This document shows, piece by piece, positions 12,915 through 37,389 of a DNA stretch of 64,000 nucleotides. The stretch is from Naegleria gruberi (lineage: Eukaryota). The stretch's first letter is position 1, and the number at the start of each line of letters is the position of its first letter. Both the position numbers and the translations under genes were made by a program. The stretch lies in the NCBI GenBank assembly GCA_000004985.1, contig GG738858.1; one strand, given 5' to 3'. The notes under the pieces are model-generated. The model was not told where the DNA came from. It did no database searches and saw nothing but the letters and a program-made list of their open reading frames with translations.

Positions 12915-15047
12915 ATGTCCACACTCACGCCAAACAACTACTTGAAGCGTAAGCGAAGTGATGAAAACTCACCAACGGACCAAGAGAATGTAAATCCTAA
13001 CAAGAAGACTAGTAAAATCCCAGTACTAAAACACTCTAATAGCTCCTCCTCTCTCAACTCATCAACACTTTCCACCAACAAAACCACACCAGTTAAACCA
13101 ACCTTACCAACAAGAACCAATTCAATCCGAGCAAATGCCACTTCTAAGATTAATATGCCAAAGCCTACATCTACACCTTCCACTAGAGTCTCACACTATC
13201 AAAAAACTACACCAAATAGTACAAATCCAAATGCCAGACAATTCGGTTCTGTCTCTGGTAGAATGCTTGCTCCAGGAAGAACAACCCAACAACAACAGCA
13301 GCAACAACAACAACTTCAACAACAATCGAAGGTTGAACTTGAACAAACCAAGTCTCAACTTTCACTTGTTTCCGAAGAAAATAACCACCTCAAGACTAAA
13401 ATCGATGAACAAACCAATCAACTCAAAGATTTGGGTCAGTTAGAAGAAAGAACAAAGTTCCTCTCCACTCAAGCAAACAAATTCCAAGAAGAAAACTTCC
13501 AATTGAAGTCTACAGTCACATCCCAAGAAATTGAAATTAGTGCCATGAAAGGTGTTCAAGAAAGATTACAATCTGATAATATTGATTTGAGAGTTAAAGT
13601 CAGCTCTTTGGAAAAGGAAGTCTCAATGGAAAAGAAGCAAGCAGAAATGGACAAGGCCACCATTAAAATTCAATACGAAAGTGAGCTTAGAATTCAAAAA
13701 GAAACATTCGAACAGCAAATTACTGAAATTACTGAAATTAAGGATAAAGAGCTTTCTCTCACTAAAGACAGACTCACTAGGGAAATTACCAAGTACAAAA
13801 CTGATTTGGAAAAGACTCAATTTGACTTGAGCTTATCAGTTGAAGATGCCAACTCCAAAGCAGAAAAGATTAGATCTCTTGAAGAAATTATCAGACAACA
13901 AGCAGAAGATATCAAATCTCTTGAGAGTAAGAGACATAAGGATGAAAATGAAAGAAGAAGATTACACAATCTCATTCAAGAACTTAAAGGTAATATCAGA
14001 GTTTATTGTAGAGTCAAGCCTGCCCAAAACTTGAAATGTATAGATTATCCAGAAAATGATGTTGATGAAAGATCCATCAGTGTTCAAGAGGAATCCAGAA
14101 CATCTGCAACTGGTGCTTCAGTTGATGGCAAGAAGGCCTTTTTCGAATTTGACAAGGTATTCAAACCAAACTCAAAGCAAAGTGAAATTTTCCACGAAAT
14201 TTCTCAACTTGTACAAAGTGCACTTGATGGTTTCAAGGTTTGTATCTTTGCCTATGGTCAAACTGGTTCTGGTAAGACTTTTACTATGGAAGGTCCACCA
14301 AGAGATGTAATCTCAAAGCTTGATATTGAATCACAAAAAGAAGTTGTTGGTATGATTCCAAGAAGTGTTGACCAAATCTTTGAATCAGCTGAAAGACTCA
14401 AAGAAAGAGGATGGACTTTCTCAATCGTTGCTAGCTTTGTAGAAATTTACAATGAAACTATTAGAGATTTGTTAGACTCCACAACTAAGGACAATGTAAA
14501 ACATGAAATTAAGCATACTAAAGATGGCTCTACATCAGTAACTGGTATCAAATACGTCAACGTTTCTGGTCCACAACACGTTCAAGATTTGTTAAAGATT
14601 GCTTCCAAGAATAGAGCTGTTGCAGCAACTCAATCAAACGATAGATCTAGTAGATCACATTCTGTCTTTACTTTGCAAATTACAGGAAGAAATGATATCA
14701 CTGATCAAACAACTCAAGGAGCATTGAATTTAGTCGATTTGGCAGGTAGTGAAAGAATTGGTACCAGTCAACCAGCTAACGGTGAAAGAGTTAAAGAAAC
14801 CCAAAACATTAATCTCAGTTTGACATGCTTGAGTAATGTTGTAAATGCTCTTTTGAATAAGTCATCACATGTTCCATACAGAGACTCTAAATTGACCTAC
14901 CTCCTTCAAAATTGTTTAGGCAAAGATGCCAAGACTTTGATGTTTGTTAATATTGACCCAGATAATGTAAATGAATCTCTTCAATCACTTCGTTTTGCTG
15001 CTAAGGTAAATTCATGTGAAGTTAATGCCTCAAGAAAGGTAAAGTAG
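12915..15047 (+). CDS. Kinesin-14 (C-terminal motor, Kar3/Ncd/KIFC type), 710 aa, single exon.
   Basis: N-terminal Ser/Thr-rich and coiled-coil region. Neck IRVYCRVKP. P-loop GQTGSGKT. Switch I SSRSH. Switch II LVDLAGSE. Motor at the C-terminus. Confidence 0.9.
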   Translation: MSTLTPNNYLKRKRSDENSPTDQENVNPNKKTSKIPVLKHSNSSSSLNSSTLSTNKTTPVKPTLPTRTNSIRANATSKINMPKPTSTPSTRVSHYQKTTPNSTNPNARQFGSVSGRMLAPGRTTQQQQQQQQQLQQQSKVELEQTKSQLSLVSEENNHLKTKIDEQTNQLKDLGQLEERTKFLSTQANKFQEENFQLKSTVTSQEIEISAMKGVQERLQSDNIDLRVKVSSLEKEVSMEKKQAEMDKATIKIQYESELRIQKETFEQQITEITEIKDKELSLTKDRLTREITKYKTDLEKTQFDLSLSVEDANSKAEKIRSLEEIIRQQAEDIKSLESKRHKDENERRRLHNLIQELKGNIRVYCRVKPAQNLKCIDYPENDVDERSISVQEESRTSATGASVDGKKAFFEFDKVFKPNSKQSEIFHEISQLVQSALDGFKVCIFAYGQTGSGKTFTMEGPPRDVISKLDIESQKEVVGMIPRSVDQIFESAERLKERGWTFSIVASFVEIYNETIRDLLDSTTKDNVKHEIKHTKDGSTSVTGIKYVNVSGPQHVQDLLKIASKNRAVAATQSNDRSSRSHSVFTLQITGRNDITDQTTQGALNLVDLAGSERIGTSQPANGERVKETQNINLSLTCLSNVVNALLNKSSHVPYRDSKLTYLLQNCLGKDAKTLMFVNIDPDNVNESLQSLRFAAKVNSCEVNASRKVK

Positions 15048-15472: not shown

Positions 15473-17071
15473 ATGACTGAATTAACACCACAACAAATTA
15501 GTGTCAGCTTTGTTACTCAATATTACTTTATTTTGTCATCAAATACTAAAAACCTTTTCAAATTTTACAAGACCGAATCTGAGATGACTCATGAACACTC
15601 AACTGTTGTTAAGCAATTACCCGGAAATATTAATCCTAATGCAGCAGTTGGAGTTGATAATATTGAAAAGAAGATTTCAACCCTAGGCTATGAAGAATGT
15701 AAAGTCAAATTGACCTATGTTGACTCACAACGCTCATTGAATGGAGCTGTTTTTGTTTTTGTAGAAGGTGTTATGACAAGACAAGTTGACCAAAAGGAAA
15801 TGAATTTCACTCAAACTTTCCTTTTGGCTGAACAAGAAAATGGATACTTTGTTAGAAATGATTATCTTCGTTTCATTCCTGATACATCTAACATTCCAAC
15901 CACTGTTCAAGCTACTCAAAGCAATCCTCCACTTGCTGAATCATCAACCACTGCTTCTGTTTCCAGCACTTCAAGCAGTGAACATCACTCTAAATCACAA
16001 AATGGTCATCAATTATCCTTCTCTCTTAATCCATCCACTGTTAACATTGTTTCCTCTACTACCAACGGTTCTCACTCTCCAAGAAGTGAAGCCAGTTCAA
16101 CTGCTGCTACAGCTGGTGCCAGTTCTGTTTATGGTGGAGCAGAAGAAAATCAATTAGATGATGAAGCTGAGGAAGAAGAAATTACAGTAGTTGAAAAGCC
16201 ACAACAAAATCAACAACCAACTCAAGCTAAATCAACTACTAGTGTACCTGCTGAAAATAAGGAACCACACGGAACAATTTCTTATGCTGCTGCTGCTAGT
16301 GGTAGAGATTATAAGAATGAATCATCTGAACAAACTCAACCAAAACACAAGTCTGGAAAGAAACACAACAAGGAAAATAAGGAACACAAGACTGAACAAC
16401 ACAAGACCGAAAACAAGGAACACAAGACTACCACTGAACAACAACAACACAATAAGGAACACAAAGAACACAAGGAACACAAAGATCACAAAGAACACAA
16501 GGAACATAAGGACCACAAGAATGAACATCATAAGAATGAACACAAGAAACCAGCCACTGCTCCAGTAACTGGTGAACAAAAGCAAGTATCAGCTGAAAAG
16601 AAGGAAAAGACTTTCCGTGGAAAGGATCATCCACTTAATAAGCATGCTATCTATGTTCGTGATCTTCCTGTTGGCACTAAGGATAGTGATTTGAAGGAAG
16701 CTTTTGCAGCTTATGGTAGCATTATTGATATTAACAACAAGTCTGGTAAGGATCAATCATACAATAAGTATGCTTTGATTTTCTTTGAAAAACAACAAAG
16801 TGTTGATGAAGTATTGAAGAATCCAGCTGTCTCAATCAATAATCACCAATGTCCAATCACAAAATACCAAAGAAAGCCAAAACAATACCCAAGAACTCCA
16901 AACCAACCAACATCTACAACCACCACCAGTACACCAACAAAGACTGAGACCACTACTACTCCTGTCACCAATAATACTCAACAACCACGTAATAATAATA
17001 ACAATAATCGTGCTCCAAGACAAAAGTATACTCGTGCCACCAGTAATGAAAGTGAATCAGAAAAGAAGTAA
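15473..17071 (+). CDS. G3BP/Rasputin-like RNA-binding protein: N-terminal NTF2-like domain plus a C-terminal RRM, with a Lys/Glu/His-rich (KEHK)n repeat linker.
   Basis: NTF2-like FVTQYYFILSSNTKNLFKFY. RRM IYVRDLPVGTKDSDLKEAFAAYGSIIDI...YALIFFE. Intervening KEHKEHKEHKDHKEHK repeats. Confidence 0.65.
   Translation: MTELTPQQISVSFVTQYYFILSSNTKNLFKFYKTESEMTHEHSTVVKQLPGNINPNAAVGVDNIEKKISTLGYEECKVKLTYVDSQRSLNGAVFVFVEGVMTRQVDQKEMNFTQTFLLAEQENGYFVRNDYLRFIPDTSNIPTTVQATQSNPPLAESSTTASVSSTSSSEHHSKSQNGHQLSFSLNPSTVNIVSSTTNGSHSPRSEASSTAATAGASSVYGGAEENQLDDEAEEEEITVVEKPQQNQQPTQAKSTTSVPAENKEPHGTISYAAAASGRDYKNESSEQTQPKHKSGKKHNKENKEHKTEQHKTENKEHKTTTEQQQHNKEHKEHKEHKDHKEHKEHKDHKNEHHKNEHKKPATAPVTGEQKQVSAEKKEKTFRGKDHPLNKHAIYVRDLPVGTKDSDLKEAFAAYGSIIDINNKSGKDQSYNKYALIFFEKQQSVDEVLKNPAVSINNHQCPITKYQRKPKQYPRTPNQPTSTTTTSTPTKTETTTTPVTNNTQQPRNNNNNNRAPRQKYTRATSNESESEKK
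16345..16548 (+). repeat. Coding imperfect tandem repeat (aag gaa cac)n and variants, encoding His/Lys/Glu-rich KEHK units.
   Basis: Direct reading: ggaacacaaagaacacaaggaacacaaagatcacaaagaacacaaggaacataaggaccacaag. Confidence 0.6.
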
Positions 17072-17721
17072 ACCTAAAGACATTAGAAAATGGCTGAAAT
17101 TAAATTGTAAAAACAAATGTAAACAAAATCAAAGAAGAAACAAAATTTTGCAGAATTAGGACTAATTCTTTTCGAAAGTAAATCATTCAATATTAATTTT
17201 CTCTATTTCCTTTGTTCTAAAGCTTTGTTCTAAAAATCGTTCCAAATCATACTGAAATTCACATTTGAACATTTCAAAAATAGAATACCATAATATTGTG
17301 AATATTAAAAGTAAATTACATGTTAGGGATGGGAAAGTCCTATTGTGAATGAGGCATGTAGTGTAATTCTAACACCACGATCAGCTCATTTATCTGAAGT
17401 GTTGGTGGCGTAACTCCATCCATGCCTTTTTACATCTGCAAAACTTTTTCTTTTGGTAAGCAAATGAGTTTGTTTTATTGAGGGCACATGTTTTCAAAAT
17501 TAAGACAAGAAACCAACAATCAACACGAACCAATACAACGACACTGGTGGAAATTCTTGAGAAAAGGTTTTCAGGCATAATTGAGTCAACTACCACAACA
17601 CTGCCTTGGAGTTTGGCTAATTTTAAAAATGCATGGGGCAATCCGGAGTGCCCTGTCTGTAGGGTATTGTCATTGTATTGAATAACTGTGATATCTGAGA
17701 TATTTCCAAATAAAGAAGGTA

Positions 17722-18865
17722 TTAAAAAATATTCGAATATTTTATACAAGCTCCTAAATGTATGAGAGCAAGCTGTAGAATTGATGTAACTGAGTCAGGT
17801 GATATTTGAGTTGTTTCCACCATTTCATTAAAAATTTGAATAGCATCTCTTCCTCTTCCATTTTTACCCAATCCATGAATTAAGGTAGTCCAGAGAGAAA
17901 CATTAATCTTTGATCTACTTTGAGATTTGAGAGTATTAAATGTCAACAGTGCTTTTTCTATTTCTCCAAACTTGGTAAGCATTCTTAATAACACGTTCAT
18001 AGCATTTACATCATTATTCAATTTGTTATTGTTCAAAATATTATCGAACAAGTTCATTCCTATCGCTTTGTCGTTTGATCGTATACATGCAGAAAGAAGT
18101 AAAATATTAATGGATGGATTATCTTTGATTCCAATAATAGTATTCATTAGTATGAATACTTTATCAAAATTGTTTTTCTTCAGAGATGCTTTAATTAGAC
18201 GTCCATAATGACTTACATTTGGGTTAATATTAAACCTATCCTTCATAGAATTAAGCAACTCTTCTGTTGATTTAATATTTCCAGAACTTGCATAGGCATC
18301 CTAAATTTTTAGTATGGTTGCTTCATTAGGGTTTAAAAAGTATGAAATAGCTCAAAAGCTCTGTTTGTCTTATTGTTCTTTACAAAACCTGAAAGCATGT
18401 TATTCCAAGAGACAATATTCTTCTCTTTCATTTCGCAGAAAATAGAATAGGCAATATCTGGTTTTGAGTAATTACAATAAAATGATATTCACTCTCGAAC
18501 ACTTCTGGAAACCCACAAAGTTGTCTCAAAGTAAAATTCCATGTTATTTTTATCTTTCCCTTGTTTTTTTGTTTCCTTATCAATGATATCAAATCTTTAC
18601 AATACTCCAAAGGTTTCATATCATTGCTTTTAGAATTGATAGCTGATATCATTGAAACTACCAAAGAAATAGAAACATCGCCTTTTTGCTTTAGGATTTC
18701 ATACATTTCCAAACATTGTTCCTAATTATACCCTTCGGAAGGTTTGGGATGTTTTTTGAATTGATAAAGTGCTTGATCTAATTTTTTCTCTTCCACCAAT
18801 TTCCTAACTGTTGTGTTGTATAGTGAAGAAATAGATAATGTTGTTAGATTCCGAAAGCTAATCAT
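17722..18865 (-). pseudogene. Pentatricopeptide-repeat (PPR) protein gene with a disrupted reading frame: two in-frame TAG codons and two -1 shifts at homopolymer runs. Pseudogene or low-quality sequence. A possible degenerate DYW-like tail lies downstream in another frame (17390..17749).
   Basis: Clear PPR motifs in three successive frames: VSWNNMLSGFVKNNKTNRAFELFHTF, NPNEATILKI*DAYASSGNIKSTEELLNSM, VSLWTTLIHGLGKNGRGRDAIQIFNEMVETTQISPDSVT. The frames rejoin if t5 becomes t6 and a3 becomes a4. The TAG codons fall at GYN*EQCLEMYEIL and KI*DAY. Confidence 0.5.
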
Positions 18866-19006
18866 TTCTTTTATTCAAAAATAATTTAACCCATGTAAAC
18901 AATTTGAATTCATTATTGGTGGATATTGTTTGAGAAGATTTGAAATCTAGTTCATTATTTGGAGGTAATTTTAAGGATTCAACATTTCCTAGTTTTACAA
19001 TAAAAA

Positions 19007-19124
19007 GACTACAGCACCACAGGTTCCCAAGTTGTCTCCAACCTCAGTACTGATGTGGCTCGACGATGCTTAACTTCTCAAATCGGACGGGATGAGGTGC
19101 ATTCATCGTGATATGGCCGTAGCC
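19007..19124 (-). rRNA. 5S rRNA: 5S ribosomal RNA gene, about 118 nt, with a downstream T5 Pol III terminator.
   Basis: Reverse complement reads GGCTACGGCCATATCACGATGAATGCACCTCATCCCGTCCGATTTGAGAAGTTAAGCATCGTCGAGCCACATCAGTACTGAGGTTGGAGACAACTTGGGAACCTGTGGTGCTGTAGTC followed by TTTTT. This matches the universal 5S consensus (GCCTACGGCCATACC...CCCGATCTCGTCTGATCTCGGAAGCTAAGCAGGGTCGGGCCTGGTTAGTACTTGGATGGGAGACC...GGGTGCTGTAGGC). Confidence 0.85.
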
Positions 19125-20457: not shown

Positions 20458-22446
20458 ATGATGTATCAGCCAACAAAAAGTAAATACGAAACATTGCACA
20501 ATCATGATGCAGTACAAGGAAACAGCAAACAATCATCAAACTTACTGCCATCACTTCAAAATTGCAATAAGAGCAAACAACCTTGTATTTGCTCAACTAC
20601 AACTTCAACTTCACAAATTCAATCAAATATTTACCTCCAACAACAACCTTCCCGATCTAATGGTTATTTCAGTAATATGGACCATATGATTAATAGTAAT
20701 TCATCCTATCAATTGTACAGACAACATTCCTTCTTAGATTCAGTCCTTACTTCCAACAATAACAATAATGGACTTCTCGAGCATGATAACACATTTCCAG
20801 ATAATTATTCTACCAACATTCCAGGTACTGAACAAATATTAATGATATTAATGTGCAATGGTATGACCCCTGAATTCGATCAATTTAATGGTAAATTCAA
20901 AACTCCAACCTACAAGTACAGTACAAATAGATTAAGAACAGAAAATTTAAACACCAACAGTAGCAATGGTACAACACCATCCTCTTCTTCTTCCACAACA
21001 CCATCCTCTAGTATATCCTCCCCTAATTGTAATGATAATCTTAAATCTCACCTTGAGAGCTCAAATACAATAACAATCATATCCAGAGAAGATATTTGCA
21101 ACGTGAATGCTACTTGTAATTCTCCACAAAGAGAATCAATCTCTAGTAACAATCAACAATATCTTTCAGAATCTTCAAATAAGCTTGATGAAAACTTAAC
21201 CCTTCCTCCTTCTCCATGCGTTTCAGACATTTCCGAATCGGAACAAGTTAAAATTCCAGAAGAAATAATTTTCCAACAAATGACCACCACCACTCCTACG
21301 ACAGACCAAAACCTCATTCCTCACAAGATTGAATCTGTTATCCATGGTTCAACCGAATCATGTCGTATTTCTGATAGTCATGGCGAAACTACCGATGAAT
21401 CCAGTGATGAAGAGGATGCTCCAAAAGCAAAATATCCAAAAAGAGAAGCAAGAGACCAACAAAAAACAATGAAACAAGACCTATCACTTGATTCTGCAGA
21501 ATCATCTGGTTTTGTTGTTAAACCTACCAGGACTTACAGTTTCAGAGATGCCACTATCTATATTCTTTCTCAAATTGGTAAACCAATGACCGCAGTTGAC
21601 ATTACTAAGAACATATTTGATAACAAGATGGTTAAAAGCGCAGGAAAAACTCCTGAAAGAACTGTTGCAGCCATGATTTATCAAGAAATGAAAAAGAAGA
21701 AAAACACCTCTGAGTTTGCTTTATTTGGCTCTGGTCTCTTTGGTTTAAGTGCTTGGAAGAGTGATGACCACACAAGCCAAGATACTGCCAGTGTTTCCAC
21801 TGACGCCTCCTTGTCATCAGTTGACAGAGCTGATAAGAAGAAAAAGGAAAAGAGGAAAAAGAGGAAACTTGCTACTAAACCAGAGAAGGAATCAGAGCTT
21901 TCAGAAGCAGAAAGTGATAATGGGATGTCCGTTTCAAAAAGAAAACCTAGAAAAATGCACAAACACAAACAAGCTTGTTCTTCTTCAAGTGAGGAAACCT
22001 CAATGACAGATTCTGAAGAAACAACAAGTAGTAAGAAGAGAAAACACAATGAATCAGAAGAAACAGCAATTATTATGACAGAGGAAGCTCTTTTCAAAAC
22101 CTACATTTCCAAACTCAAAAAGAAGGATCAAACAGAATCCGATGAAGATGAATGTTTTGTTTGTAAGAATGGTGGTGATTTGATTTGTTGTGATTATAGA
22201 GGATGTAGAAAGGTTTATCATGCTTCATGTGTTGGTCTTAAAGAAGTGCCTCAAGGAGATTGGATTTGTCCTCATCACTATTGTGCAGAATGTAAAAAGA
22301 AATCATTCAGGAGCAAATCTTCTAAGAAGTGTTTCAGTTGTCCATATAGTGTTTGTGGTGAACATGGTTCTCTATTGAAAGATAAGATAGATAACGACAA
22401 GTATGTTTGCACAAAATGTAAACCAATGTGTGAGAACATTAAATAA
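20458..22446 (+). CDS. Ser/Asn-rich nuclear protein with a HARE-HTH-like winged-helix segment and a C-terminal PHD-type zinc finger (662 aa).
   Basis: C-terminal CFVCKNGGDLICCDYRGCRKVYHASCVGL...WICPHHYCAECKK (C4HC3-like). Lys/Arg-rich NLS-like KKKKEKRKKRK. Segment YILSQIGKPMTAVDITKNIF...TPERTVAAMIYQEM resembles HARE-HTH. Confidence 0.6.
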   Translation: MMYQPTKSKYETLHNHDAVQGNSKQSSNLLPSLQNCNKSKQPCICSTTTSTSQIQSNIYLQQQPSRSNGYFSNMDHMINSNSSYQLYRQHSFLDSVLTSNNNNNGLLEHDNTFPDNYSTNIPGTEQILMILMCNGMTPEFDQFNGKFKTPTYKYSTNRLRTENLNTNSSNGTTPSSSSSTTPSSSISSPNCNDNLKSHLESSNTITIISREDICNVNATCNSPQRESISSNNQQYLSESSNKLDENLTLPPSPCVSDISESEQVKIPEEIIFQQMTTTTPTTDQNLIPHKIESVIHGSTESCRISDSHGETTDESSDEEDAPKAKYPKREARDQQKTMKQDLSLDSAESSGFVVKPTRTYSFRDATIYILSQIGKPMTAVDITKNIFDNKMVKSAGKTPERTVAAMIYQEMKKKKNTSEFALFGSGLFGLSAWKSDDHTSQDTASVSTDASLSSVDRADKKKKEKRKKRKLATKPEKESELSEAESDNGMSVSKRKPRKMHKHKQACSSSSEETSMTDSEETTSSKKRKHNESEETAIIMTEEALFKTYISKLKKKDQTESDEDECFVCKNGGDLICCDYRGCRKVYHASCVGLKEVPQGDWICPHHYCAECKKKSFRSKSSKKCFSCPYSVCGEHGSLLKDKIDNDKYVCTKCKPMCENIK

Positions 22447-22709: not shown

Positions 22710-25174
22710 ATGAAGAAACTCTTTTCCCGTACACCTAGCTTTCGTCCAAAATTTTCCAGTAGAATTGATAGCCATGAACAAACTGATGCTCTTGTAGGAG
22801 ATGTTTATCCTGGTCCTCATACAACTAATGGTCAATCATCAATAGTTAATAGTGCACCACTTAGTTCAACTAGTACTAATTCTCTTAACTCCACCACAAT
22901 CAAATATATGTTATTTGGTGGAGAACTTGATGATTCAGATCCAAACAAATTACCACAATTTATTCTTGATACCATTGATTTCCTTCTCAAATATGGTCTA
23001 GAAGTTGAGGGTATCTTTAGAGTTTCAACTCATGAGACTAGAAAAGCCGATTTGATCAACAAGATGAATGATCGATATGCTAAAGAGAAGGATCCACACA
23101 AGAATTGTACATTTACATATAATGGTACAAATAGTGATGAAGTTTATTTTGCCTCTGCTGTTTTAAAACATTACTTTAGAAGTTTACCAACTCCACTCAT
23201 CAAACCACAATTTTATGAAACTTTCATGTTGACAACTAAATGTAGAGATCAGGAAAGAAAAGACATGTTAAAGAATGCTGTCAGATTGTTACCTGTTAAT
23301 TATTTTACTTTATTGAAAAAGATTTCAGACCTTTGTTTTGAAATTTCAAAACACAGCTCATCAAATAAGATGACATGCGAAAATTTATCCGTCTGTTGGA
23401 CTCCTAATTTATTAATGTATGTTATTCATATTATTCATTTATTATTCATTTAGTGATTCAATATGATCTCAATAATTGTAAATGAATTGATCATTCATGG
23501 ATCAATAACTCTCTTCAAATTGTTAAATCAAATAGTAATAATAATATGGATTTTATGGAACAAATGAAGAGAACAGGTGATGCTCAAAATGTAATTGCAG
23601 CTCTTTTCAGAGATTGTAAACAAATCTTTGAAGACGAAGAAGAGGTACCTGTTAGAAATGTAGAAAGAAAACGATCAGCAGCTCAAACTAAGAAATTCTT
23701 TTTGGGACTCACTTCACAAACTTCTCAAGAAGGAATGGCAGTTTACAATGGAGAAAAGAATGAAAATGGAGAGAAACATGGTCGTGGTATTTTAATGTTA
23801 CCAAATGGTTCAGTATTTGAAGGTGAATTTAGAAATAACAGTTATGCAAATGGTAAATTGGTTTATGTTACAGGTGAACAATACGAAGGAAAGTTTATTG
23901 ATGATTTGCCAGATGATGATAATGGTGTTTTCCGTTTTGCAAACATGTCAGTTTACACTGGTCAAGTAAAGAAAGGCCAATTGACTGGAGTTGGTGAATT
24001 GAAATACAAAGATGGTGGTATTTACAAAGGATCATTTGTAAATGGAAAGAGAGAAGGAAAAGGAAGTTTTGAATTTTATGAAGGAAATCAAAAAGTTAGA
24101 CATTACGATGGTGATTGGGAAAATGATTCAATGAGTGGTCAAGGTACCCTAATTAACACAACTATTCAACAAGTTTATACTGGTCAATTTAAGAATAATG
24201 TTTATCACGGACAAGGTGTTTTAATTTCTGGTTTAGAACAAAATAGATGTGAAGGTGAATTTGAGAATGGTGTTGTAAAGAATGGTTCTGGAAGTTTCAC
24301 TTCACTGAATAATGAATTTATTCAATTTGAAGGATCATGGAAGAATTGTCAATTCACAGGTAAAATTAAGATTTTCAATTTCCAAACCAGATCATTAGAA
24401 TTTGAAGGTGATATGATTGACTCTAGAAAGAATGGTTTCGGTAAATTAGTTTATTCAGATGGATCATATTATGAAGGTCAATTTAATAATGATGAAATGA
24501 CTGGTACAGGTTCATTTGTTGATTCTGATAGAGTTTACAATGGTCAATTCGTTAAAAGTTTATTCCATGGTAAAGGAAAGTTAAAGGCAACTTTCAAATC
24601 TAAGGATTATGTTTTTGAAGGAGAATTTAGAGAACACCAACCATATAATGGTGTTGGTTCAGTTGTTGTGAGTAGAAAAACTGGAGATTATTGGGATGGT
24701 GAATTTAAGAATGGAAAGTTTAGTGGAAAGGGTCGTCTCACATTTGAAGATGCTTCTGTTTATGAAGGTAATGTTAAAAATTCACTTTGTGAAGGAAAGG
24801 GTGTTGTCACCTATCCAGATGGATCAATTTATTCTGGATCATTCTCAAATGATGAAAGACATGGTCCTGGAACACTCACTATTAAGGATGGAGATGAGAA
24901 GGATTTCATGATTGTCTCAATTAATCAAGTTTGGGATCATGGTGTTTTAGTTTCACAAGAAGAACCTCAATCACCTGCTACATTGGATGAGAAGGAATCT
25001 CTAATCTTTTCATTCCTTGACTCATTAGAGAAGGAAGAACCTCTGAGATTTGGACCACTTGTTGGTAAAGAACAACGACCTTACATCTCAACTGCCTTAA
25101 CAAAAGCAAAGGAAAATCCAAATACTTCAATCTTGTATGAAATTCTCTATCAACTCTCAAAATGCAGGCGTTAA
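22710..25174 (+). CDS. RhoGAP domain protein fused to MORN repeats. Proposed exons 22710..23416 and 23536..25174, with a 119-nt intron 23417..23535 (GTATGT..AATAG, phase 2). Alternative model: two separate genes, 22710..23453 and 23546..25174.
   Basis: RhoGAP motifs GIFRVS (Arg finger), LKHYFRSLPTPL, NKMTCENLSVCWTPNLL. The spliced product continues in frame into TGDAQNVIAALFRDCKQIF, which matches the last RhoGAP helix. This is followed by more than 12 MORN-like repeats (YEGxFxNGKxHGxG). Confidence 0.6.
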
Positions 25175-35472: not shown

Positions 35473-37389
35473 ATGAGAGCATCATCACACTTGCTTAAAC
35501 AACACTGCTCCTCCAAACGAGCATCAGGTAAAAAACTGTTGAGTAATACTGTTGCTTCTGTACTTGGTACAACAGCAAATGGCAGAGCCTTGTCAAGTAC
35601 CATTGTATCATCATCAATCAAGAATAATTTATTTGCCAACAAGAATAATTTATATAACAAACCAAATCATTCCAAGAGAAGCTTTTCGACAAGTTTATTG
35701 TCCAGAAATGAAGAATCTATGGAAGAAGAACCAATCGAAAGAGAAGTTATGGAATATGACGTTGTAATTGTTGGTGCAGGTCCATCTGGTTTATCTTGTG
35801 CAATTAAATTAAAACAATTGGCACAAGAATCGGGAAGTGATATTAGTGTATGTGTTTTGGAAAAGGGACAAGAAGTTGGATCTCATCTCTTATCAGGTGC
35901 ATGTATGGAAACACATTCACTTGAAGAATTATTCCCAAATTTCAGAGAACTTGATGTACCTTTCTATACACCTGCCACAAAGGATAGAATGTTGTTTTTG
36001 ACAGAGAAGAGAGCATTACCTTTACCAACAATTTCCGAAATGAATAATCATGGTAATTACATTGTTAGTTTGGGTCAAATTGCCAAATGGTTATCTGAAC
36101 AAGCAGAAGCTTTAGGAGTTGATATTTTACCAGGTTTTTCTGCTGATCAAGTCGTTTATGCTGATGAAAATAATGATAGAGTCATTGGTGTCATCACAAA
36201 GGATGTTGGTATCGGAAAGGATGGAAAGAGAAAGGACAATTTTGAACCAGGTATTATGCTTCAAGCAAGACAAACAATTTTCTCTGAAGGATGTAGAGGA
36301 TCACTCACTAAAACTCTTTATGCCAATCAGAAATTTAAATTGAGAGAAAATTGCACACCACAAACTTTTGCTCTCGGAGTTAAAGAATTATGGGAATTTC
36401 CAGAAGATCACCCAACATTTGACAAGGGACTTATTACACACAGTGTTGGTTATCCATTAGATGCTCACACTTATGGTGGTTCATTCATGTATCATTTCAA
36501 TGCTGATGGTGCCAATAGAGTTGCTCTTGGTTTAGTTACTGCATTAGATTATGAAAATCCAACTCTCAGTCCATATAATGAATTCCAAAAACTTAAACAT
36601 CATCCAGAATTTAAGAAAGTTCTCGAAGGTGGTAAATGCATTTCATATGGAGCTAGAACTCTCGTTGAAGGTGGTATTCAAGCTCTTCCAAAACTTTCAT
36701 TCCCAGGTGGTGTTTTAATTGGTGATACTGCTGGTTTCTTGAACGTTCCAAAGATCAAGGGTATTCACACAGCCATGAAATCTGGTATTTTGGGAGCTGA
36801 AAGTGTTTTTGAAGCTCTTACAAAGGATCAAGTTGAAGCAAGTACATTCCAAGAAAGATTCAAGAGTTCTTGGTTATACAACGAACTCTACAAGGAAAGA
36901 AATATTAGATCCTATTTCAAATATGGTCTCTATCCTGGTCTTTTATTGGCTGGTGTTGATTCAATTGTTTTTCGTGGAAAGACACCATGGACTGTCAAGA
37001 TGGAAACTTTAGATAATGAACATACCAAACCAATTTCTGAAGTGAAAAAGATTGAATATCCAAAACCAGATGGTGTTATCAGTTTCGATTTGTTGACTAA
37101 TCTCCAACGTTCTGGAACCAACCATAATCACGATCAACCAGCTCACTTAAAGTTGAAGGATGATTCCATACCTGTAAATGTTAACCTCAAAGTTTATGGT
37201 GGTCCTGAACAATACTTCTGTCCTGCCCGTGTGTATGAATTTATTCCAGATGAACAAGGAAATCAAAAGCTCAAGATTAATGCCCAAAATTGTCTCCACT
37301 GTAAGGCATGTGACATTAAGGATCCAAAGCAAAATATTAACTGGACTGTCCCTGAAGGTACTGGAGGTCCATCCTATCTTATTATGTAA
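35473..37389 (+). CDS. ETFDH: Electron-transfer flavoprotein:ubiquinone oxidoreductase (ETF-QO), mitochondrial, 638 aa, single exon.
   Basis: N-terminal presequence. FAD-binding DVVIVGAGPSGLSCAIKL. C-terminal 4Fe-4S region CPARVYEF...NCLHCKACDIKDP. Overall ETF-QO collinearity. Confidence 0.9.
   Translation: MRASSHLLKQHCSSKRASGKKLLSNTVASVLGTTANGRALSSTIVSSSIKNNLFANKNNLYNKPNHSKRSFSTSLLSRNEESMEEEPIEREVMEYDVVIVGAGPSGLSCAIKLKQLAQESGSDISVCVLEKGQEVGSHLLSGACMETHSLEELFPNFRELDVPFYTPATKDRMLFLTEKRALPLPTISEMNNHGNYIVSLGQIAKWLSEQAEALGVDILPGFSADQVVYADENNDRVIGVITKDVGIGKDGKRKDNFEPGIMLQARQTIFSEGCRGSLTKTLYANQKFKLRENCTPQTFALGVKELWEFPEDHPTFDKGLITHSVGYPLDAHTYGGSFMYHFNADGANRVALGLVTALDYENPTLSPYNEFQKLKHHPEFKKVLEGGKCISYGARTLVEGGIQALPKLSFPGGVLIGDTAGFLNVPKIKGIHTAMKSGILGAESVFEALTKDQVEASTFQERFKSSWLYNELYKERNIRSYFKYGLYPGLLLAGVDSIVFRGKTPWTVKMETLDNEHTKPISEVKKIEYPKPDGVISFDLLTNLQRSGTNHNHDQPAHLKLKDDSIPVNVNLKVYGGPEQYFCPARVYEFIPDEQGNQKLKINAQNCLHCKACDIKDPKQNINWTVPEGTGGPSYLIM

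What the first reader, a model, noticed from the sequence alone, without database searches (positions are those of the whole stretch)
17390..18865. PPR gene carrying two in-frame TAG codons and two homopolymer frameshifts, possibly with a degenerate DYW-like tail
Three consecutive frames on the minus strand each encode textbook PPR motifs. They rejoin perfectly if a t5 run (about 18380) is t6 and an a3 run (about 18425) is a4, so these shifts could be homopolymer assembly errors. Two TAG codons then remain in frame (GYN*EQC and KI*DAY). Every other gene in the window is intact, so TAG is a genuine stop here. The gene is therefore either a recent pseudogene or needs read-through. The ORF immediately downstream (17390..17749) ends in ...HSGLPHAFLKL...ISTSVVVLVRVDCW. 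This loosely resembles the HSE..AFGL...VRD..RFH..DYW terminus of DYW deaminase domains of organellar RNA-editing factors, but it lacks the CxxCH zinc motif.
Basis: partly seen in the sequence, partly recalled or inferred. Interest (0 to 1): 0.6.

Follow-up and report, generated by a model that had tools for sequence, protein, structure and literature searches.

The report
Dead PPR editing-factor gene in Naegleria
This is the decayed, unannotated remnant of a plant-like mitochondrial RNA-editing-factor (PPR) gene in the amoeba Naegleria gruberi; it has lost its catalytic end and about four repeats and carries stops and frameshifts, so it is an ordinary pseudogene and not a recoded or mis-assembled gene.

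Summary
The window is Naegleria gruberi nuclear DNA, from a species known to have 10-11 plant-like DYW-type PPR genes. On the minus strand at 17722-18865 there is a real PPR-coding relic, with Pfam PPR_2 E=1e-28 after conceptual repair. Its closest intact relative is P0037, a 765-aa PPR-E-DYW protein from a metagenomic eukaryote. P0037 matches collinearly from Met1 at 38-48% identity, and this maps the damage. There are two TAGs (18722-18724 and 18301-18303). A second frame change lies at or near the T5 run 18335-18339. The whole C-terminal L2-S2-E1-E2-DYW module (245 aa) is missing. The supposed DYW-like tail (17390-17749) is chance: a custom E/DYW profile gives negative scores in all six frames, and its BLAST score against PPR/DYW proteins is no better than shuffled versions. 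TAG is a working stop here and the genome was Sanger-sequenced, so read-through and homopolymer error are both unlikely. There are only 2 stops in 379 codons against about 32 expected, so the decay is fairly young. No close intact paralogue was found. Verdict: a unitary pseudogene of a known family, of low interest.

The parts
18863..18865 (-). Retained start codon (ATG) of the PPR relic
   Evidence: It aligns with Met1 of the intact relative P0037 (alignments A1 and A2), so the 5' end of the gene is complete.
18518..18865 (-). Segment A (first reading frame): N-terminal region and the first degenerate PPR-like helices
   Evidence: tblastn: P0037 residues 17-127 match window 18814-18518 at 41% identity over 111 aa, E 2e-19.
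18722..18724 (-). Premature stop 1 (TAG, codon 48; GYN*EQC)
   Evidence: The flanking residues align to P0037 without a gap, so an intron cannot remove this stop.
18489..18517 (-). Junction 1: internal deletion of about 137 codons (about four PPR motifs), coinciding with the first frame change
   Evidence: P0037 residues 128-264 have no counterpart, and only about 30 nt separate the flanking homologous blocks, which lie in different frames. The missing region is present in the Willaertia relatives P0062 and P0161, so it is ancestral.
18336..18488 (-). Segment C (second frame): ISFYCNYSKPDIAYSIFCEMKEKNIVSWNNMLSGFVKNNKTNRAFELFHTF, an S-type plus a P-type PPR motif
   Evidence: 48% identity to P0037 residues 265-320. 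Pfam PPR_2 E 1.9e-12 and PPR E 4.7e-12.
18331..18345 (-). Junction 2: second frame change (net -1 nt) in or next to the T5 run at 18335-18339
   Evidence: The relic is 3 residues shorter than P0037 and P0062 here, so either a 1-nt slip or a 10-nt deletion is possible.
17745..18333 (-). Segment B (third frame): about five PLS-type PPR motifs, ending inside an L2-type motif (...SVTSILQLALIHLGAC)
   Evidence: 38% identity over 204 aa to P0037 residues 321-520, joint E 1e-48. Pfam PPR_2 E 1.6e-19.
18301..18303 (-). Premature stop 2 (TAG; KI*DAY)
   Evidence: It aligns to Met332 of P0037 and to Leu in P0062; one T->A change converts TTG (Leu) to TAG.
17722..17744 (-). 3' truncation point: a non-homologous tail (IKYSNIF) followed by TAA, containing a perfect 18-nt palindrome at 17726-17743
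   Evidence: Homology to P0037 ends after HLGAC. P0037 residues 521-765 (rest of L2, S2, E1, E2, DYW) have no match anywhere in the 64 kb window. The palindrome is shown (I5).
17390..17749 (-). It is not part of the PPR gene and is of unknown or no function
   Evidence: There is no Pfam hit. The E/DYW HMM gives negative scores in all frames. BLASTP is no better than shuffles.
19006..19124 (-). Complete 5S rRNA gene, whose 3' end lies 141 nt upstream of the relic's ATG (context, not part of the gene)
   Evidence: Rfam RF00001, 105.4 bits against a gathering score of 38, model positions 1-120 of 120.

Best explanation
The locus is a unitary (non-duplicated) pseudogene: the dead copy of a nuclear gene for a PLS-class, DYW-type pentatricopeptide-repeat protein in Naegleria gruberi. 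This is the horizontally acquired, plant-like family thought to specify and catalyse mitochondrial C-to-U RNA editing. The ancestral gene encoded roughly 760 aa: a short N-terminal region, about 12-14 PPR motifs, the E1/E2 motifs and a DYW cytidine-deaminase domain. After selection was lost, the copy in this genome accumulated six lesions: two nonsense mutations (TAG), an internal deletion of about 410 nt that removed about four PPR motifs and shifted the frame, a second small frameshifting indel, and a 3' deletion or rearrangement that removed the last one and a half PPR motifs plus E1, E2 and the whole deaminase domain. It makes no functional protein. What is shown: family membership of the remaining segments, the position of each lesion relative to intact relatives, the absence of any E/DYW remnant, and the absence of a close intact paralogue or any annotated product in the databases searched. 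What is inferred: the order of the lesions, the fairly recent loss of constraint, and the ancestral function (mitochondrial editing), which rests on family membership only.
For: The organism was identified by exact matches of four neighbouring ORFs to N. gruberi proteins EFC46509, EFC46510, EFC46512 and EFC46516. PPR identity: Pfam PPR_2 E 1e-28 and PPR E 1.5e-25 on the repaired protein, and the best relatives all carry E_motif with or without DYW_deaminase. Collinear homology runs from Met1 to P0037 (765 aa; DYW_deaminase 133.5 bits, E_motif 44.5 bits) in three successive frames, with total BLASTP E 7e-58. Six lesions were mapped against P0037 and the Willaertia magna relatives P0062 and P0161. 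No E/DYW remnant exists in any frame downstream, and no other match to P0037 exists in the window. TAG is a used stop. The genome was Sanger-sequenced. The exhaustive HMMER search of 1.84 billion representatives returned no hit above 36% identity, so there is no annotated product of this locus and no close intact paralogue in a collection that demonstrably holds the N. gruberi proteome. None of the four ORF fragments is on record as a called gene. There are 2 stops in 379 codons against about 32 expected, which gives d about 0.035 (95% CI 0.004-0.13) of neutral decay. Background: N. gruberi has 10-11 DYW-type PPR genes but only two verified editing sites, and the family shows lineage-specific expansion and turnover (PMC4202320; bioRxiv 10.64898/2026.09.04.749523).
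Against: There are no raw reads, no second assembly and no transcript data for this locus, so the lesions rest on one (Sanger) assembly. The nearest intact relative is only 33-48% identical and is not syntenic, so 'deletion' is inferred from a distant comparison, although two Willaertia outgroups support it. I could not retrieve the annotated N. gruberi DYW proteins by name, because the word-indexed searches were swamped by plant PPRs; the claim of 'no close paralogue' therefore rests on the exhaustive HMMER ranking alone. N. gruberi may be polyploid or heterozygous (my recollection of the genome paper, not checked here), so an intact allele cannot be excluded. The surviving segments are well preserved, which could also mean that a truncated product stayed useful for some time.
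Confidence: 0.88

Rival explanations
1. The gene is intact and the damage is an assembly or sequencing artefact: homopolymer miscounts cause the two frameshifts, and other base-call errors cause the stops.
For: T5->T6 at 18335-18339 does rejoin the last two frames.
Against: The NEG-M genome was Sanger-sequenced, and that method does not miscount runs of 3-5 bases systematically. Homology places the first frame change at 18489-18517, at a junction where about 137 codons are missing, and not at the a3 run. Two independent TAGs and the missing 245-aa E/DYW module cannot be homopolymer errors.
Confidence: 0.03
2. The gene is functional and is expressed through recoding: TAG read-through at two sites plus two programmed ribosomal frameshifts (or mRNA-level repair).
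For: Only TAG, and never TAA or TGA, interrupts the homologous path, and the remaining codons are well preserved.
Against: TAG ends 5 of 37 long ORFs in the same window, including exact-match annotated genes. Four separate recoding events of two kinds would be needed. Even the repaired product has a PPR motif broken by the internal deletion, ends inside an L2 motif and lacks E1, E2 and DYW. No recoding signal was looked for or is known at these sites.
Confidence: 0.01
3. The assembled sequence is a null allele, and an intact allele of the same gene persists on another haplotype or in other N. gruberi strains.
For: The point-mutation load is low (d about 0.035). The exhaustive search found no other close copy, so if the function is still needed it would have to come from an allele.
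Against: Six independent lesions, including two large deletions, are many for a segregating null allele. No annotated protein at 50% identity or more to the relic exists in the collection, which includes the N. gruberi proteome. There is no direct data either way.
Confidence: 0.06
4. The locus is a truncated but still used product, for example the 174-178-aa ORF at 17722-18258 with about five PPR motifs, acting as an RNA-binding factor without a DYW domain.
For: The ORF at 17722-18258 is intact, carries strong PPR hits (E 1.6e-19) and has an internal ATG at 18246. In plants, PPR proteins that lack DYW can work with a DYW domain supplied in trans (bioRxiv 10.64898/2026.09.04.749523).
Against: No gene with this product is on record in any assembly. 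The ORF would lack an N-terminal targeting sequence, it starts in the middle of a PPR motif, and no promoter evidence exists. Its openness is expected for a young pseudogene.
Confidence: 0.03

Closest known systems
DYW-type PLS-class PPR proteins of Naegleria gruberi (10-11 genes; Knoop and Rudinger 2010, cited through PMC4202320) and of land plants (organellar C-to-U RNA editing factors)
   Same: It is in the same organism and the same repeat family. The surviving segments have the characteristic PLS-type signatures (…NIVSWNNMLSGF…, …VSHYGRLIKA…, …WTTLIHGLGKNGRG…). All the nearest homologues carry the Pfam E_motif, with or without DYW_deaminase.
   Different: The relic has no E1, E2 or DYW module, lacks about four internal PPR motifs, and is interrupted by two stops and two frame changes. 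It cannot be an editing enzyme. It is not at 50% identity or more to any annotated N. gruberi protein.
P0037, an unnamed 765-aa PPR-E-DYW protein on JGI metagenome 3300002220 contig MLSBCLC_10042003 (locus L001)
   Same: This is the closest relative found. It is collinear from Met1, including the non-repeat N-terminus (41% identity), and through the PPR tract (38-48% identity), with BLASTP E 7e-58.
   Different: P0037 is intact and has the E motif and a DYW domain that ends in DYF. It comes from a different organism (38.8% GC against 32.9%) and a different gene neighbourhood (RPB2, WD40, CFAP91, GT18). Orthology is therefore plausible but not shown.
Willaertia magna PPR proteins KAL9655006.1 (P0062, DYW-type), KAL9657062.1 (P0161), KAL9658046.1 (P0123) and KAL9652962.1 (P0032)
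   Same: These are the next-best relatives, from the sister genus of Naegleria, at 26-29% identity to the relic. They contain the region deleted in the relic and the full E/DYW module.
   Different: They are more distant than P0037, and they are intact genes.
Loss and pseudogenisation of plant PPR editing factors after loss of their editing sites (for example CRR28, RARE1 and CLB19; PMC5992886)
   Same: The evolutionary pattern is the same: a site-specific editing factor that becomes dispensable decays by stops, frameshifts and deletions.
   Different: For the Naegleria relic no target site is known, and the link to a lost editing site is only an inference.

Membership tests
PPR protein family (Pfam PF01535 / PF13041) | Tandem, roughly 35-aa helix-turn-helix PPR motifs scoring above the Pfam gathering thresholds | tested here: met
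   On the repaired protein, PPR_2 scores 99.6 bits (cut-off 30; 6 stretches) and PPR scores 88 bits (cut-off 25; 5 stretches). The unrepaired fragments also pass.
PLS-class PPR (the plant-type editing-factor subclass) | Nearest homologues are PLS-class proteins, with a collinear arrangement of P, L and S variant motifs | tested here: met
   All the top hits carry E_motif, with or without DYW_deaminase. The relic aligns collinearly with the PLS tract of P0037, P0062 and P0161. I did not run a formal motif caller such as PPRfinder.
DYW-type PPR editing factor | E1/E2 (Pfam E_motif, PF20431) extension after the last S2 motif | tested here: not met
   There is no E_motif hit at E<=10 on the repaired protein, whereas P0037 scores 44.5 bits and P0062 scores 48.7 bits. 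The custom L2-S2-E1-E2-DYW HMM gives negative scores in all six frames of 16900-17800.
DYW-type PPR editing factor | C-terminal DYW cytidine-deaminase domain (PF14432) with the HxE...CxxCH zinc-binding signature and a DYW-like terminus | tested here: not met
   There is no PF14432 hit in any frame. tblastn with P0037 and P0062 finds nothing for their C-terminal 245 aa anywhere in the window. The 119-aa ORF is no better than shuffles and has no CxxCH motif.
Functional protein-coding gene | A single uninterrupted reading frame from start to stop (with or without plausible introns) | tested here: not met
   There are two in-frame TAGs and two frame changes. Residues on both sides of each TAG align without a gap to P0037, so introns cannot remove them.
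Functional protein-coding gene | Transcription and translation of the locus | not testable with these tools
   No expression data are available here. No gene product from the locus is on record.
Mitochondrial RNA-editing factor (functional sense) | Mitochondrial targeting and a cognate C-to-U editing site in the mtDNA | not tested
   No mitochondrial genome or transcriptome is available through these tools. The literature reports only two editing sites in N. gruberi (PMC4202320).

The most novel reading that the evidence does not exclude
The relic records the recent death of one member of the horizontally acquired DYW-PPR family in Naegleria, after its mitochondrial editing target was lost (for example by a genomic C-to-T change). 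That would make it a non-plant example of editing-factor and editing-site co-loss. The intact relative P0037 would show what the lost factor looked like, and through its PPR code, which RNA it bound.
Probability: 0.3. Interest if true: 0.3.

Novelty: new member of a known kind. Interest (0 to 1): 0.15.

Why it matters
The significance is modest. N. gruberi is the classic non-plant carrier of plant-type DYW-PPR editing factors, and it has many more such genes (10-11) than known editing sites (2). A clearly dead family member with no close living paralogue is direct evidence that the family turns over by gene birth and death in this lineage, as it does in plants. It also gives a concrete locus for testing whether loss of a factor tracks loss of an editing site. 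In practical terms, the locus should be annotated as a pseudogene. It should not be counted as a DYW gene or cited as evidence for stop-codon read-through.

Tried and rejected
(1) Word-indexed homology searches returned only plant PLS-PPRs or nothing. They missed even P0037 and P0062, so they could not deliver the named N. gruberi DYW paralogues. (2) Independent assemblies and transcripts: exact look-ups of four ORF fragments found no record. The 44-aa cluster mate of the neighbouring gene (P0002) led to unrelated phage-like contigs. (3) Two metagenome scans for closer relatives, one with N-terminal patterns and one with PPR-tract patterns, found nothing. (4) Synteny: P0037's contig shares no neighbours with the window. 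(5) Introns as an explanation for the frame changes and stops were rejected, because the homologous residues run without a gap across both TAGs and up to both junctions. The only GT...AG unit around TAG1 is 10 nt long (read from the sequence). (6) The DYW-tail idea was tested in three ways and rejected. The only curiosity was 'FCRCKKAW' aligning to '...CSCGDYW' at -5.1 bits, which is not significant. (7) The downstream region as a repeat or mobile element: there is no significant match elsewhere in the window apart from its own palindrome. (8) Primary papers: Knoop and Rudinger 2010, Rudinger et al. 2011 (PMC3222119) and Schallenberg-Rudinger et al. 2013 (PMC3858438) are not held. I therefore could not check whether this relic has been mentioned before. 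The papers that are held and that contain 'Naegleria', 'pentatricopeptide' and 'pseudogene' do not, judging by their titles and abstracts, describe it.

Full report
**Where the window comes from.** Four long ORFs in the window are exact matches to Naegleria gruberi proteins on one 782-kb scaffold: EFC46509 kinesin-14 (12915-15047), EFC46510 (15473-17071), EFC46512 (25332-26834) and EFC46516 ETF-QO (35473-37389). The window is 33% G+C. [quoted passage not shown] It has 10-11 such genes and two verified mitochondrial C-to-U editing sites (PMC4202320). A PPR-related sequence here is therefore expected biology and not an oddity.

**Checking the observation.** An ATG at 18865 opens a frame that runs to about 18490, with a TAG at 18722-18724 (GYN*EQC). 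A second frame carries ISFYCNYSKPDIAYSIFCEMKEKNIVSWNNMLSGFVKNNKTNRAFELFHTF. A third frame runs from about 18333 to a TAA at 17722-17724, with a TAG at 18301-18303 (KI*DAY). Pfam confirms PPR motifs in the second and third pieces (E 1e-12 to 1e-19). On the conceptually repaired protein, PPR_2 scores E 1e-28 with six stretches. The reading path defined by homology has 2 stops in 379 codons, whereas composition-matched shuffles give 32 on average and never fewer than 17 in 2000 trials. This is real coding sequence that has been damaged. TAG is a working stop codon in this genome: it ends 5 of the 37 long ORFs in the window, including the exact-match kinesin gene.

**Finding the right comparison.** The word-indexed protein search returned only plant PLS-class PPRs at 20-27% identity. 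An exhaustive HMMER search of 1.84 billion representatives, using the longest exact fragment (178 aa), gave 6875 hits. Most scored highly only because many repeats each contributed. Re-ranking all the retrieved proteins by a single collinear BLASTP alignment to the repaired protein singled out P0037. It is 765 aa long and matches at 33% identity over 358 aa with E 7e-58; the next best hit scores 110 bits against P0037's 195. P0037 comes from a 14.8-kb JGI metagenome contig. It has a complete architecture: PPR tract, E_motif (44.5 bits) and DYW_deaminase (133.5 bits), ending ...CSCGDYF. The next-best relatives are proteins of Willaertia magna, the sister genus of Naegleria. No hit in the exhaustive search exceeds 36% identity. 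The collection demonstrably contains the N. gruberi proteome, so there is no annotated product of this locus and no close intact paralogue. The relic is a unitary pseudogene and not a fresh duplicate.

**The lesion map.** tblastn of P0037 against the window gives three collinear blocks in three successive frames:

- P0037 residues 17-127 match 18814-18518 at 41% identity. This block includes the non-repeat N-terminus, and the two Met1 residues align.
- P0037 residues 265-320 match 18488-18321 at 48% identity.
- P0037 residues 321-520 match 18330-17725 at 38% identity.

Four conclusions follow.

- **Internal deletion and first frame change.** P0037 residues 128-264 (137 aa, about four PPR motifs) have no counterpart, and only about 30 nt separate the flanking blocks. 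The two Willaertia proteins contain this region, so it was deleted in the N. gruberi locus.
- **Second frame change.** It falls in or beside the T5 run at 18335-18339. T5->T6 would repair it, but the relic is also three residues shorter than its relatives here, so a 10-nt deletion is equally possible.
- **The two TAGs.** Both lie inside ungapped homologous stretches, so they cannot be spliced out.
- **3' truncation.** Homology stops after ...HLGAC (17745), in the middle of an L2-type motif. P0037 residues 521-765, which cover the rest of L2, S2, E1, E2, the PG box and the DYW deaminase, match nothing anywhere in the 64 kb.

**The supposed DYW-like tail.** The ORF at 17390-17749 has no Pfam hit at E<=1 in any frame. 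Every score was negative, from -0.8 to -5.6 bits. The ORF's best BLASTP score against all 195 PPR/DYW proteins held is 22.7 bits, exactly the median for shuffled versions of the ORF, and 31 of 60 shuffles score at least as high. What this 119-aa ORF is remains unexplained. It is somewhat more G+C-rich than its flanks. By my estimate about 0.3 ORFs of this length are expected by chance in 64 kb of this composition.

**Artefact, recoding or pseudogene?**

- **Assembly error.** The NEG-M reference genome was Sanger-sequenced (PMC9928731 Table 1), and that method does not systematically miscount runs of three to five bases. Only one of the six lesions could be a homopolymer slip at all.
- **Recoding.** Read-through plus frameshifting would require four separate events. 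The result would still be a protein with a broken PPR motif and no E/DYW module, in a genome where TAG clearly terminates translation.
- **Other records of the locus.** None of the ORF fragments is recorded as a called gene in any public assembly in the collection.
- **Conclusion.** The simplest reading is a pseudogene.

**Age of the pseudogene.** Counting the single-base changes that could create stops in the surviving codons (172 of them) and assuming equal rates, two observed nonsense codons correspond to about 0.035 substitutions per site of unconstrained evolution (95% CI 0.004-0.13). The death of the gene is therefore fairly recent in terms of point mutations, even though two large deletions have occurred. 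The order of the events cannot be recovered.

**Mechanism and history (inferred).** The ancestral gene most likely encoded a mitochondrial, site-specific C-to-U editing factor like its intact relatives. That function is assigned from family membership only. It is untested for any protist DYW protein (bioRxiv 10.64898/2026.09.04.749523). The gene may have become dispensable because its editing site was lost. That is a plausible scenario by analogy with plants (PMC5992886), but it was not tested here.

**Comparison with known biology, and novelty.** DYW-PPR genes in Naegleria have been known since 2010. Lineage-specific expansion and turnover of the family is documented in heteroloboseans and plants. 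PPR pseudogenes are commonplace in plants. I could not open the primary Naegleria papers, so I cannot say whether this particular relic has been noted before. No protein from it is in the databases. I classify it as a new, dead member of a known kind.

**Limits.** All the lesion calls rest on one assembly. The best comparator is distant and not syntenic. The annotated N. gruberi paralogues could not be retrieved by name. There are no expression data. Two metagenome scans for closer relatives found nothing.

**Other observations.** A complete 5S rRNA gene lies at 19006-19124 on the same strand, and its 3' end is 141 nt upstream of the relic's ATG. It is the only Rfam hit in the window. A perfect 18-nt palindrome (17726-17743) sits exactly at the 3' breakpoint of homology and supplies the terminal codons and the stop.

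Noticed in passing
window 19006-19124 (minus strand): There is a complete 5S rRNA gene here (Rfam RF00001, 105.4 bits, full model). It is the only Rfam hit in the 64 kb. Its 3' end, with a T-run terminator, lies 141 nt upstream of the relic's ATG, in what would have been the PPR gene's promoter region.
   Followed up: partly
window 17726-17743 (within the inverted repeat 17714-17755): A perfect 18-nt palindrome, AAAATATTCGAATATTTT, sits exactly where homology to the intact relative stops. It encodes the non-homologous tail IKYSNIF plus the TAA stop. It may mark the 3' deletion or rearrangement breakpoint, but AT-rich palindromes are common, so this is weak evidence.
   Followed up: partly
window 17390-17749 (minus strand): This 119-aa ORF is somewhat more G+C-rich (0.36-0.42) than its flanks. 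It has no Pfam hit and no similarity to PPR/DYW proteins beyond shuffled controls. Its origin is unexplained, and it may be a chance ORF (about 0.3 expected per window by my estimate).
   Followed up: partly
L001 10001-12298 (JGI metagenome 3300002220, contig MLSBCLC_10042003): This locus carries the intact PPR-E-DYW gene (P0037) of an unidentified eukaryote (38.8% GC). Its neighbours are RPB2, WD40-repeat, CFAP91 and GT18 genes. The protein ends in DYF instead of DYW and is the only close relative of the relic's subfamily found anywhere.
   Followed up: partly
window 20458-22446 and 23546-25174 (plus strand): These two long ORFs are not exact matches to any database protein, although their neighbours are. 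The annotated N. gruberi gene models there presumably differ through introns or alternative starts. Only one accession number (EFC46511) falls between the flanking matched genes, even though there are three long ORFs.
   Followed up: no
window 15473-17071 (plus strand; EFC46510): A 44-aa metagenomic 'hypothetical protein' (P0002) clusters at 90% identity or more with this low-complexity (HKEHK-repeat) Naegleria protein, but it lies on phage-like contigs with SNF2 and DNA polymerase A genes. This is a clustering artefact of low-complexity sequence and not a relative.
   Followed up: yes
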